Virus genome (UHGV): UHGV-0078064
Length of the DNA stretch: 14,337 nt
Reading direction: 5' to 3' (one strand)
Origin: a virus
The stretch's first letter is position 1; the number at the start of each line of letters is the position of its first letter. Below the pieces are notes generated by a model. That model worked only from the letters and a program-made list of their open reading frames with translations, was not told the origin of the DNA and searched no databases. Positions 5,885-7,631 of the stretch are shown here, one piece after another. The translations under genes and the position numbers were made by a program.

Positions 5885-6349
5885 CTATCGACGGCACTGC
5901 TGCCAGATAACACCACCGGGGAAACATTCCATCATGATGGCCGTGCGGACATAGGAAGCCAGTTCATCCATCGCTTTCTTGTCTGCTGCCATTTGCTTTG
6001 TGACATCCAGCGCCGCACATTCAGCAGCGTTTTTCAGCGCGTTTTCGATCAACGTTTCAATGTTGGTATCAACACCAGGTTTAACTTTGAACTTATCGGC
6101 ACTGACGGTTACCTTGTTCTGCGCTGGCTCATCACGCTGGATACCAAGGCTGATGTTGTAGATATTGGTCACCGGCTGAGGTGTTTCGATTGCCGCTGCG
6201 TGGATAGCACCATTTGCGATAGCGGCGTCCTTGATGAATGACACTCCATTGCGAATAAGTTCGAAGGAGACGGTGTCACGAATGCGCTGGTCCAGCTCGT
6301 CGATTGCCTTTTGTGCAGCAGAGGTATCAATCTCAACGCCAAGCGTCAT
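5885..6349 (-). CDS. Hypothetical protein, cos-proximal late-strand accessory gene
   Basis: 154-aa ORF (MTLGVEIDTSAAQKAIDELDQRIRDTVSFELIRNG...) with ATG start, 12 nt downstream of the preceding gene's stop, ending 55-60 nt before cosN. No family recognised from memory. Occupies the position of lambda's post-bor ORFs but does not resemble them by size or order. Confidence 0.6.
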   Translation of the reverse strand: MTLGVEIDTSAAQKAIDELDQRIRDTVSFELIRNGVSFIKDAAIANGAIHAAAIETPQPVTNIYNISLGIQRDEPAQNKVTVSADKFKVKPGVDTNIETLIENALKNAAECAALDVTKQMAADKKAMDELASYVRTAIMMECFPGGVIWQQCRR

Positions 6350-6361
6350 CGAAGCGCAATA

Positions 6362-6613
6362 TTACTGCTCACCAAAACGCGTATTGACCAGGTGTTCAAC
6401 GGCAAATTTCTGCCCTTCTGATGTCAGAAAGGTAAAGTGATTTTCTTTCTGGTATTCAGTTGCTGTGTGTCTGGTTTCAGCAAAACCAAGCTCGCGCAAT
6501 TCGGCTGTGCCAGATTTAGAAGGCAGATCACCAGACAGCAACGCGCCACGGAAAAACAGCGCATAAAGCACTTCATTAGCAGCGCCAGATAGCGTAATGA
6601 TTTTGTTACTCAT
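6362..6613 (-). CDS. Hypothetical small protein, cos-proximal late-strand accessory gene
   Basis: 83 aa from the ATG at 6611-6613 (MSNKIITLSGAANEVLYALFFRGALLSGDL...), with AAGGAAA SD about 6 nt upstream. The ORF track's 96-aa version starts at a TTG at 6652 with no SD. No family recognised. Confidence 0.6.
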   Translation of the reverse strand: MSNKIITLSGAANEVLYALFFRGALLSGDLPSKSGTAELRELGFAETRHTATEYQKENHFTFLTSEGQKFAVEHLVNTRFGEQ

Positions 6614-6632
6614 GGAATATTTCCTTTTAGGC

Positions 6633-6686
6633 GTGAGCCTGTCGCACGGCAAAGCCGCCGAAAGTTAACGGTTTGCCCAGGCTCAC
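6633..6686. repeat. Perfect 9-bp inverted repeat GTGAGCCTG / CAGGCTCAC with a 36-bp spacer that contains a nested GGCAAA/TTTGCC pair
   Basis: Read directly: arms at 6633-6641 and 6678-6686, nested complementary hexamers at 6648-6653 and 6672-6677, GTTAAC palindrome in the centre. Lies 20-73 nt upstream of the 83-aa gene start. Confidence 0.7.
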
Positions 6687-6724
6687 AGCTGAAAGACTTT
6701 CTACGATGTGCGCGTGCGATGCGC

Positions 6725-6749
6725 ATAAAAAAGCCGCGTGATGGCGGCT
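6725..6749 (-). terminator. Candidate rho-independent terminator (minus strand)
   Basis: Minus-strand RNA: AGCCGC-CAUCAC-GCGGCU (6-bp GC-rich stem, 6-nt loop) followed by UUUUUAU. The + strand tail is weaker (ACUGUUUG). Confidence 0.55.
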
Positions 6750-6878
6750 ACTGTTTGAATATCAGGGTGTTGTTTCGTCTTAACCCTGGTTAATGTAGGC
6801 ATTCAGCCCGTCGGTGGTGGGACACTGGCGCACTTAATAAAGAGTACTGGCTGATTACCTCAGAATAAGGAATCAAAA

Positions 6879-7139
6879 ATGTCAGAAGGTTTTGGTTTAA
6901 AAGAAAAGGTTGAGCAGTTAGAAAAAGAATTAGCCGTACAAAAAATAGCAAATCAGCTTGCTTTTGGAGCACTAATTAAAGCAGTTAATGAGCTGTACCC
7001 GAACAAAGATTTATATGATGGGTTGACAAAATTTGTCCAGGAAAAACTTGATCCTGAACGTGTTAAAAACATCCCTAATCTTCACGAGGCCTTTCTAGAA
7101 GCTGCGAAAATACTGAGGACTGACGCATCTCCTGAATAA
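6879..7139 (+). CDS. Hypothetical protein encoded on the opposite strand, AT-rich (moron-like)
   Basis: 86-aa ORF (MSEGFGLKEKVEQLEKELAVQKIANQLAFGALIKAVNELYPNKDLYDGL...), with AAGGA SD 7 nt upstream of the ATG. Conspicuously AT-rich relative to flanking phage genes. It is the only convincing + strand gene in the window and sits where lambda has bor (also opposite strand), but the product is not Bor-like and has no lipoprotein signal. Confidence 0.6.
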   Translation: MSEGFGLKEKVEQLEKELAVQKIANQLAFGALIKAVNELYPNKDLYDGLTKFVQEKLDPERVKNIPNLHEAFLEAAKILRTDASPE

Positions 7140-7233
7140 TTTTATCAACAAAGGCAGTTGTGTCCTCTTGCTTTTCATTCACAATGCATGTGACTGCCTT
7201 TTCTAAAGCTGTAATTCGTTCTTCAAGTGTCAT
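7075..7233 (-). CDS. Possible small ORF (52 aa) convergent with and overlapping the 3' end of the + strand gene
   Basis: ATG at 7231-7233 (MTLEERITALEKAVTCIVNEKQEDTTAFVDKIIQEMRQSSVFSQLLERPRED) preceded by AGGAG with 5-nt spacing. Overlaps the + gene by 65 bp. The ORF track extends it to a TTG at 7257. Coding status uncertain. Confidence 0.3.
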   Translation of the reverse strand: MTLEERITALEKAVTCIVNEKQEDTTAFVDKIIQEMRQSSVFSQLLERPRED

Positions 7234-7292
7234 ACCCACTCCTGTCATTGGCTTCAAAATGATAAACCCCGCATTTGCAAGTCCTATTTATA

Positions 7293-7331
7293 CCCCGCAG
7301 GGGATAAAAACCATATTATCCGCTTGCGGGG
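7293..7331. repeat. Imperfect palindrome CCCCGCAGGGGATAA-(8 nt)-TTATCCGCTTGCGGGG
   Basis: Read directly: GGATAA/TTATCC (6 bp) and CCCCGC/GCGGGG (6 bp) arms separated by a small internal loop. No clean U-tract on either strand. On the minus strand it abuts a TATAAAT element. Confidence 0.6.
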
Positions 7332-7373
7332 ATATCCATTATCAAGCCCACCAGCAGGTGAGCTTTGGAATGG

Positions 7374-7631
7374 TTACTTCGCTTTTGCTTCCGCTCGCTT
7401 ACGCCGGCGCTCTTCTTTCCTCTCGGCTTTTGCCATGTCCATGAATGCCTGCATGATCGAGTTCCGCATCATGTAGCTGACAAAGTGATGGTTGACACAG
7501 CCGTTGAGGCGCAGCTGCTCGCCAAACTCATCCACCGAGGCCAATGCTTCCATCATGCCCTTCTCGCCTTTCATGAACTCTGAGAAGTCGCGCCCCGCTC
7601 TGGAGGCGCATTCTATTATTCGGGTGCTCAT
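7374..7631 (-). CDS. Hypothetical small protein with a lysine/arginine-rich C-terminal tail, coupled to the upstream KilA-N gene
   Basis: 85 aa from the ATG at 7629-7631 (MSTRIIECASRAGRDFSEFMKGEKGMMEALASVDEFGEQL...AKAERKEERRRKRAEAKAK). Its start is 2 nt after the KilA-N gene stop (TGAtcATG). The ORF track's 105-aa version overlaps the upstream gene. Confidence 0.55.
   Translation of the reverse strand: MSTRIIECASRAGRDFSEFMKGEKGMMEALASVDEFGEQLRLNGCVNHHFVSYMMRNSIMQAFMDMAKAERKEERRRKRAEAKAK

What the first reader, a model, noticed from the sequence alone, without database searches (positions are those of the whole stretch)
7293..7331. Imperfect 39-bp palindrome between the KilA-N operon and the small convergent ORF
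CCCCGC...GGATAA-(8 nt)-TTATCC...GCGGGG forms two 6-bp helices. It has no clean U-tract on either strand, so it is not an obvious intrinsic terminator. On the minus strand it sits immediately upstream of a TATAAAT element that could be the -10 for the 52-aa ORF. That makes it a candidate operator or regulated-promoter element; alternatively it is an RNA processing or stability element at the 3' end of the KilA-N operon transcript.
Basis: seen in the sequence. Interest (0 to 1): 0.35.

Follow-up and report, generated by a model that had tools for sequence, protein, structure and literature searches.

The report
HipB-type operator pair in prophage
The "palindrome" is two side-by-side copies of the DNA site that the E. 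coli antitoxin and repressor HipB binds at its own hipBA promoter, here lying without a hipB gene in the late region of a lambda-like phage, which suggests that many temperate phages are wired to, or interfere with, the host's HipBA persistence switch.

Summary
The palindrome is real, at the stated coordinates, and folds far better than shuffles. It is only the middle of a 48-bp element (7288-7335). That element is two tandem 20-bp dyads, TTATAC-N8-GGATAA and TTATCC-N8-GGATAT, with starts 28 bp apart.

This is the E. coli HipB operator consensus (TATCC-N8-GGATA) in the same 18-10-18 layout as the O1-O2 and O3-O4 pairs of the K-12 hipBA promoter. Unit 2 matches O1 at 18 of 20 bases.

The exact double-dyad pattern hit 103 loci in species-representative genomes. 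In 77 of them a hipB homologue starts 1-166 nt from the pair (one outlier). The same pair occurs without hipB in more than 120 viral contigs and in HK97, mEp213 and Stx2 phages. It usually lies 2-30 nt upstream of genes that open the packaging module.

Half-sites are conserved. Spacers vary without covariation, so a protein-binding DNA site fits better than an RNA hairpin.

Best reading: an orphan HipB operator pair that recruits host HipB, with or without HipA, and blocks transcription into downstream minus-strand genes. Binding and its effect are untested. A decoy for HipB is the main rival. I found no report of this in the paper library searched.

The parts
7288..7307 (.). Operator-like unit 1: TTATAC-CCCGCAGG-GGATAA. 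The core TATAC-N8-GGATA has one mismatch to the HipB consensus. On the minus strand it reads TTATCCCCTGCGGGGTATAA.
   Evidence: The GGGTATAA variant half-site also occurs in genuine hipB-adjacent operators.
7308..7315 (.). 8-bp spacer between the 20-bp units. This equals the 10-bp gap between 18-bp cores and gives the 28-bp period.
   Evidence: K-12 hipBA operators start at L245 2965/2993 and 3032/3060, 28 bp apart within each pair. PMC4150777 gives the separations as 10, 21 and 10 bp.
7316..7335 (.). Operator-like unit 2: TTATCC-GCTTGCGG-GGATAT. It matches the consensus perfectly and matches hipBA O1 at 18 of 20 bases.
7336..7373 (-). Conserved 38-nt hairpin that abuts the pair, just after the stop codon (7376-7374) of the small ORF downstream of KilA-N. 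It marks a mosaic joint. Whether it works together with the operators is unknown.
7340..7345 (-). TTGATA, a -35-like hexamer inside the conserved hairpin, 19 bp upstream of GATAAT.
   Evidence: Read from the sequence. The promoter scan, which allows 16-18 bp spacers, did not report it.
7315..7320 (-). GATAAT, a -10-like hexamer formed by the half-site of unit 2 plus one spacer base. This is the same position as the -10 in many hipBA promoters.
   Evidence: Only 23 of 72 phage sites have a T at this position.
7286..7292 (-). It overlaps the half-site GTATAA of unit 1.
7258..7281 (-). Decayed copy of a terminator (CTTGCAAATGCGGGG + TTTATCATTTT). In relatives the intact terminator follows the pair directly.
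7075..7233 (-). 52-aa ORF (phrog_28630) with an AGGAG ribosome-binding site. It is the first gene downstream of the pair on the late strand, with its ATG 54 nt after the pair. It overlaps the convergent 86-aa + strand ORF at 6879-7139.

Best explanation
The element at 7288-7335 is an orphan pair of HipB-type operators. Each unit is a 20-bp dyad for one dimer of an Xre-family helix-turn-helix repressor. The two units have the same phasing as the O1-O2 pair of the hipBA promoter, which HipB binds cooperatively.

In an E. coli host, which almost always carries hipBA, chromosomal HipB would occupy this site, alone or as a HipA-HipB complex. The site lies between the lysis/KilA-N accessory genes and the downstream accessory and packaging genes.

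Inferred consequence: the bound complex blocks transcription on the minus (late) strand. It would do so either by occluding a weak local promoter that overlaps the operators, or as a roadblock that works together with the flanking hairpin and terminator. Downstream genes would then stay silent while HipB is present. They would open up when HipB is degraded by Lon or titrated by replicating phage DNA.

Shown: the sequence identity with HipB operators, the specificity of that pattern for hipB loci, and wide conservation in phages. Inferred: HipB binding here, and its effect on transcription.
For: (1) Both units fit TATCC-N8-GGATA, with 0 and 1 mismatch, and are separated by 10 bp. The consensus and a 48-bp O1O2 oligo bound by HipB at Kd 0.6 nM are given in PMC3376134. 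The K-12 promoter shows four such sites in two pairs with a 28-bp period. Unit 2 matches O1 at 18/20.

(2) The exact double-dyad pattern found 103 loci in one genome per species. 77 have a hipB homologue (36-100% identity), starting 1-166 nt from the pair in 76 of them, and 75 have hipA. So the pattern is a specific signature of HipB operators.

(3) The same pattern found more than 120 viral contigs. Only four of the roughly 245 phage loci held encode HipB or HipA. mEp213 has one pair in 44 kb and no HipB homologue.

(4) In 120 loci chosen only by the neighbouring hairpin, 72 carry a pair with at most 2 mismatches. Reversed-sequence controls gave 0. In 71 of the 72 the pair lies downstream of the hairpin on the late strand.

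(5) Half-sites carry about 2 bits of information and spacers about 0-0.5 bits. Variable columns show no pairing beyond shuffles.

(6) At least ten unrelated gene families start 2-31 nt after the pair, including HNH endonuclease and small terminase. hipB sits in the same way after its own operators.

(7) hipB with its promoter is present in 5250 of 5426 complete E. coli genomes.
Against: No binding data exist for this site.

No convincing sigma-70 promoter overlaps the pair in this window. The -10-like T after the first unit is not enriched across phage sites (23 of 72).

In this window and its closest relatives the pair is followed by a terminator or its remnant, not directly by a gene. That fits a roadblock or decoy better than a promoter.

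Some carriers are Salmonella phages such as epsilon34. I could not check whether their hosts have an E. coli-type HipB.

HipB is a scarce, autoregulated protein, so occupancy of an extra site is not guaranteed.

Antiterminated late transcription must still pass the site during lytic growth.
Confidence: 0.5

Rival explanations
1. Decoy for the host toxin-antitoxin system. The pair has no cis-regulatory role. As phage DNA replicates, the many copies bind HipB and HipA-HipB complexes. This protects HipB from Lon and holds HipA in inactive complexes on DNA, so infection does not trigger HipA-mediated translation arrest. Alternatively the copies titrate HipB away from its own promoter and reset the switch.
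For: Operator DNA slows Lon degradation of HipB in vitro, with t1/2 above 200 min (PMC3376134). The strict O1O2-like spacing is kept in all phage copies. From my own knowledge (Schumacher et al. 2015), this is the geometry that lets HipA dimerise inactively on adjacent operators. The pairs have no hipB gene and occur once per genome. In this window's subfamily the pair is followed by a terminator, which makes little sense for a promoter.
Against: A decoy could lie anywhere. Yet the pair keeps one location and orientation, downstream of the hairpin at the head of the packaging module, and sits 2-31 nt from unrelated start codons. No evidence was found in the library that HipBA restricts these phages.
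Confidence: 0.2
2. The sites are bound by another repressor, not host HipB. It would be a phage-encoded or other Xre-family protein with the same specificity, and it would control the downstream genes.
For: HipB homologues only 36-45% identical to E. coli HipB still use this dyad, so distant relatives share the specificity. Some carriers infect Salmonella. Lambdoid phages encode many helix-turn-helix proteins.
Against: tblastn with HipB found no homologue in mEp213 (whole genome) or in the roughly 240 phage loci apart from four hipBA loci. The pair is the only good match in mEp213, so no autoregulatory site marks a cognate gene. None of 24 orphan genomic pairs has an obvious alternative regulator next to it. 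The phages that carry the pair have unrelated immunity and accessory modules.
Confidence: 0.12
3. RNA element. The 39-48-nt hairpin forms in the late transcript or its antisense and acts as a processing site (for example for RNase III), a stabiliser, or a terminator without a U-tract at the end of the KilA-N unit.
For: The hairpin is strongly predicted on both strands in this window. 47 of 57 relatives can form some inter-unit hairpin. The adjacent conserved 38-nt hairpin does look like an RNA structure on the late strand.
Against: Variable columns pair no more often than in shuffles (0.50 against 0.48, and 0.52 against 0.52). Half-site changes are not compensated. Stability ranges from -6.4 to -31.8 kcal/mol, and the HK97 pair gives -8 to -13. 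All four half-sites are conserved in sequence, which an RNA helix does not require. No U-tract follows. There is no Rfam match.
Confidence: 0.08
4. Inert relic. A piece of a hipBA promoter was captured by an ancestral phage and is now carried along by module exchange without any function.
For: The element lies at a mosaic joint. Decayed versions exist, for example in L044 and L047.
Against: Half-sites stay intact while the spacers have diverged almost to randomness in about 100 distinct versions. That pattern requires selection on the half-sites. No similarity to the hipBA promoter extends beyond the operators.
Confidence: 0.05

Closest known systems
O1-O2 and O3-O4 operator pairs of the E. 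coli hipBA promoter (HipB autoregulation)
   Same: The dyad is the same (T)TATCC-N8-GGATA(A/T). The 20-bp unit, the 8-bp spacer between units and the 28-bp period are the same. Unit 2 matches O1 at 18/20. In many phage copies the position just upstream of a start codon is also the same.
   Different: There is no hipB or hipA next to the pair. There are only two operators rather than four. The -35 TTGACA that abuts the distal operator in hipBA promoters is absent here; TTGATA lies 4 bp further away. The setting is a phage late operon.
Orphan HipB boxes at the relA, eutH and fadH promoters (Lin et al. 2013, as summarised in PMC3920263)
   Same: These are HipB palindromes away from hipBA that give the antitoxin a wider regulon.
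   Different: They are host chromosomal promoters and, as far as the summary says, single palindromes. Here the site is a phased pair carried by phages and conserved across many phage lineages.
Lambdoid 'moron' boundaries (promoter and terminator flanking an inserted gene). From my own knowledge: Juhala et al. 2000.
   Same: The element lies at a mosaic joint next to inserted accessory genes and terminators.
   Different: The conserved part is a specific operator pair for a host repressor, not a generic promoter or terminator.
Phage countermeasures that mimic antitoxins, such as pseudo-ToxI RNA of phage PhiTE and T4 Dmd. From my own knowledge.
   Same: If the decoy reading is right, the phage would carry a piece of the host toxin-antitoxin system's own control apparatus to keep the toxin silent.
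   Different: Those examples are an RNA or a protein that neutralises the toxin directly. This would be DNA that binds the antitoxin. No functional evidence exists here.
Intrinsic (Rho-independent) terminator
   Same: It is a G+C-containing inverted repeat in an intergenic region after an operon.
   Different: There is no U-tract on either strand, and the stem is not conserved as a structure.

Membership tests
HipB operator (E. coli type) | 18-bp dyad TATCC-N8-GGATA | tested here: met
   Unit 2 (7317-7334) has 0 mismatches. Unit 1 (7289-7306) has 1 mismatch (TATAC). The consensus is from PMC3376134. The same GTATA variant occurs in hipB-adjacent operators.
HipB operator (E. coli type) | Operators arranged in pairs 10 bp apart (28-bp period), which allows cooperative binding | tested here: met
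   The window units start at 7288 and 7316. The K-12 operators start at 2965/2993 and 3032/3060 in L245. PMC4150777 gives separations of 10, 21 and 10 bp.
HipB operator (E. coli type) | Located upstream of a hipBA operon (autoregulation) | tested here: not met
   No hipB or hipA homologue was found in the window or in most of the fetched phage loci that carry the pair (tblastn). It is therefore an orphan site, like those at relA, eutH and fadH.
HipB operator (E. coli type) | Bound by HipB or the HipA-HipB complex | not testable with these tools
   This needs EMSA, footprinting or ChIP. Indirect support: 18/20 identity to O1, and 77 of 103 genomic matches to the pattern lie next to hipB.
HipB operator (E. 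coli type) | Overlaps the -35/-10 of the promoter it represses | tested here: inconclusive
   hipBA promoters show TTGACA abutting the distal unit and a -10 in its right half-site. Here there is TTGATA with a 19-bp spacer to GATAAT, and the promoter scan found nothing.
Intrinsic terminator | Stable G+C-rich stem followed directly by a U-tract | tested here: not met
   The stem is present, but the tails are AUAUCCAUU on the + strand and UAUAAAUAGG on the - strand. The terminator scan did not list it.
Conserved structured RNA | Base pairs maintained by compensatory change across relatives | tested here: not met
   Pairing in variable columns equals the shuffle expectation. Half-site variants are uncompensated. 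There is no Rfam family match.

The most novel reading that the evidence does not exclude
Temperate enterobacterial phages (HK97-like, lambda-like, Sf6-like and Stx2 phages) carry a phased copy of the host hipBA operator pair at the entrance to their packaging module in order to plug into the host's HipBA persistence switch. One version is a sensor that ties phage gene expression to HipB turnover. The other is a DNA decoy that stabilises HipB and keeps the HipA kinase inactive during infection. The decoy version would be a kind of anti-toxin-antitoxin device not described before.
Probability: 0.2. Interest if true: 0.85.

Novelty: new variant of a known kind. Interest (0 to 1): 0.62.

Why it matters
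HipBA is the founding persistence locus, and HipB is known mainly as the repressor of its own operon.

A perfectly phased HipB operator pair without a hipB gene occurs in more than a hundred phage contigs and in model phages such as HK97 and Stx2 phages. It occurs once per genome in the one complete genome checked (mEp213). It usually sits at the head of the DNA-packaging genes.

This would mean a direct molecular link between a host toxin-antitoxin module and temperate-phage gene control or counter-defence. The link is testable with existing reagents: purified HipB and HipA, hipBA deletion and hipA7 strains, and HK97 or lambda genetics.

It also gives a concrete candidate function to a conserved but unannotated intergenic module in lambdoid late regions.

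Tried and rejected
- **Rfam.** The whole window at gathering thresholds gave nothing. A permissive scan of 6600-7500 gave only sub-threshold hits (isrK 17.6 bits against a cut-off of 50). Relatives gave nothing at the element.
- **Promoter and terminator scan.** No promoter or terminator was found at the palindrome.
- **Long RNA hairpin or two short hairpins.** No covariation was found and stability varies widely among relatives.
- **Replication-initiator iterons or immunity operators.** I rejected these because mEp213 has no other copy of the dyad anywhere in its 44 kb, including the O gene and the cI/cro region.
- **Other resemblances considered by eye and dropped.**
  - Fur box at GGATAAC-CATTATCA: it leaves the G+C-rich dyads unexplained.
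  - DnaA box TTATCCACA: the ACA is not conserved.
  - Hin/Gin hix-type sites: these are 26 bp, not 20.
  - LysR T-N11-A boxes: the spacing is off by one.
  - Type III toxin-antitoxin repeat arrays: there are only two palindromic units here and the downstream genes are unrelated.
  - CsrA GGA sites.
- **A common downstream gene.** I looked for one that could explain the element, but at least ten unrelated families follow it.
- **A cognate regulator gene next to orphan pairs in bacterial genomes.** None was found.
- **Literature.** Searches linking HipB with HK97, or with phage, terminase and operator together, found nothing relevant. The library lacks most subscription journals.

Full report
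**Setting**

The window is a lambdoid phage or prophage whose late operon runs on the minus strand. The gene order is holin, lysozyme and Rz (9786-8569), a KilA-N/P63C protein (8437-7634), and a small ORF of phrog_875 (7631-7374). Next come the finding, a cassette with two overlapping small ORFs, a strong terminator, cos, and lambda-type Nu1, A, W, B and C. HK97, HK022 and mEpX1 are 97-98% identical down to 7337 and then diverge. mEp213 and mEp043 are 98.9% identical over 6650-7372. The finding therefore lies at a mosaic joint.

**Observation**

The palindrome is as described, and no U-tract follows on either strand. It folds at -25.1 kcal/mol on the + strand (z -4.5) and -22.4 on the - strand (z -3.1).

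**What it really is**

I aligned relatives and collected 120 viral contigs through the conserved 16-mer next to the palindrome. This showed a recurring unit, TTATCC-N8-GGATA(A/T), present twice with an 8-bp spacer. In the window the units are 7288-7307 (TTATAC...GGATAA) and 7316-7335 (TTATCC...GGATAT).

The outer helix comes from the C- and G-rich bases beside the half-sites. These are the only good matches in the window. The same two are the only ones in the complete 44-kb genome of mEp213.

**Identification**

TATCC-N8-GGATA is the published consensus of the operators bound by the E. coli antitoxin and repressor HipB. A 48-bp O1O2 oligonucleotide of the same architecture binds HipB with Kd 0.6 nM (PMC3376134).

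I fetched the K-12 hipBA promoter. It holds four exact sites in two pairs, each pair with starts 28 bp apart. This agrees with the published separations of 10, 21 and 10 bp (PMC4150777). The window has the same 28-bp period, and unit 2 matches O1 at 18 of 20 positions.

**Specificity of the pattern**

I scanned one genome per bacterial species for the exact double dyad (22 specified bases) and found 103 loci. 77 have a hipB homologue (36-100% identical to E. coli HipB), starting 1-166 nt from the pair in 76 of them, and 75 have hipA. The pattern is therefore a reliable mark of HipB operators across Gammaproteobacteria. Of the 24 loci with neither gene, some are prophages and none shows an alternative regulator gene beside the pair.

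**Distribution in phages**

In the 120 loci that were chosen only by the neighbouring hairpin, 72 contain a pair with at most two mismatches in 20 positions. Reversed-sequence controls gave none. In 71 of the 72 the pair lies 2-860 nt downstream of the hairpin on the late strand.

Named carriers include HK97, where the pair sits upstream of a 45-aa DUF2560-like ORF and the HNH protein gp74. Others are mEpX1/2, mEp213, CUS-3, Sf101, epsilon34 and Stx2-converting phages. P22 lacks the pair.

The genes that start right after the pair belong to at least ten unrelated families. They include HNH endonuclease and small terminase, and they typically begin 2-31 nt downstream, as hipB does after its own operators.

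**DNA site or RNA structure?**

Across 72 distinct phage versions the half-sites carry about 2 bits per position, while the N8 and the spacer between units carry about 0-0.5 bits. The half-site conservation in the second data set is partly imposed by the search pattern. It is also seen in the set chosen by the hairpin alone.

In the unconstrained columns, pairing between the two units is no more frequent than after shuffling partners. Half-site variants are not compensated.

Predicted stability ranges from -6.4 to -31.8 kcal/mol; the HK97 pair gives -8 to -13. Genuine hipBA operator pairs also score as hairpins (z -2.7 to -4.5). The long hairpin is thus a by-product of two adjacent palindromic protein sites, made stronger in this window by a few extra matches.

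**Mechanism**

hipB with its promoter is present in 5250 of 5426 complete E. coli genomes, so the host factor is almost always available. I therefore take host HipB, with or without HipA, as the most likely occupant.

What occupancy does is inferred. In hipBA promoters TTGACA abuts the distal operator and the -10 lies in its right half-site. Some phage groups keep this geometry, with ATGACA or ATGGCA abutting the unit and GATAAT at its end.

In this window the best candidates are TTGATA (7345-7340), a 19-bp spacer, then GATAAT (7320-7315). The scan reports no promoter.

In the closest relatives the pair is followed directly by a strong terminator. The window has a decayed copy of that terminator at 7281-7258, then an inserted 540-bp cassette, then an intact copy at 6749-6732. 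For this subfamily a roadblock or insulator role fits at least as well as promoter repression. Here the hairpin, the HipB pair and the terminator would together stop transcription that is not antiterminated from entering the packaging genes.

The main rival is a decoy that binds HipB or HipA-HipB on replicating phage DNA. Operator DNA protects HipB from Lon in vitro. From my own knowledge (Schumacher et al. 2015), adjacent operators promote inactive HipA dimers. The fixed position and the closeness to start codons argue for a cis role, but they do not exclude the decoy.

**Novelty**

HipB operators and a few orphan HipB boxes in host promoters are known. I found nothing in the searchable library that links HipB operators to phage late regions. 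That library omits much subscription literature.

I rate this a new variant of a known kind. The site type is known. The orphan, phased, phage-borne and widely conserved form at the head of the packaging module appears not to have been described.

**Limits**

- No binding or expression data exist for this site.
- Some carriers are Salmonella phages, and I could not check the HipB status of their hosts.
- Part of the comparative set was selected with the consensus itself.
- Which of the two overlapping small ORFs downstream is real remains open.

Noticed in passing
window 7336-7373 (minus strand): A conserved 38-nt hairpin (CCATTCCAAAGCTCACC-TGCT-GGTGGGCTTGATAATGG) lies directly after the stop codon of the phrog_875 ORF. 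It is shared by HK97, mEpX1, mEp213, ECP1, Stx2 phages and more than 120 viral contigs with different flanks. Stem variants are C/T opposite G, so they still pair (as G-U) only on the late-strand RNA, while the loop varies freely. No U-tract follows. Its function is unknown, and it marks the joint where modules are exchanged.
   Followed up: partly
window 6750-7287: A cassette of about 540 bp holds a + strand 86-aa ORF (6879-7139, phrog_21164) whose 3' end overlaps a - strand 52-aa ORF (7233-7075, phrog_28630). The cassette is absent from relatives L043, L057, L073 and L121, where the operator pair is followed directly by a terminator. It looks like an insertion between two copies of that terminator: a decayed copy at 7281-7258 and an intact one at 6749-6732. 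Which ORF is real was not resolved.
   Followed up: partly
window 6732-6749 (minus strand) and 6724-6872: A strong terminator (AGCCGCCATCACGCGGCT followed by TTTTT) is also preceded by an A-run, so it could act in both directions. The surrounding 150 bp resemble intergenic stretches annotated 'terminator' in the tail regions of HK97, ES18 and HK022. A weak isrK match (17.6 bits against a cut-off of 50) overlaps it and is probably due to the terminator alone.
   Followed up: partly
window 5885-6652 (minus strand): Two adjacent ORFs (6652-6362 and 6349-5885) match positions 1-83 and 89-242 of the same family, phrog_17079. This suggests one gene split by a frameshift or stop. Relatives are annotated differently: they carry a 155-aa gene at the equivalent of 6146-6613.
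   Followed up: no
loci L190 and L231 (viral contigs): A hipBA homologue (HipB 36% and HipA 45% identical to E. coli) lies on predicted viral contigs, preceded by the same operator pair. Some mobile elements may therefore carry their own HipBA of the same operator specificity.
   Followed up: no
locus L002 (HK97) 790-835; locus L350 (Stx2a_WGPS8) 1519-1564; locus L349 (P22): HK97 and an Stx2a-converting phage carry the operator pair between the KilA-N region and the HNH/terminase genes. P22 lacks it upstream of its homologous orf80. These make a natural comparison set for experiments.
   Followed up: partly
locus L043 941-1137: A full-length STnc100 small-RNA match (61.7 bits, above the family cut-off) lies on a related viral contig. 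It is unrelated to the finding.
   Followed up: no
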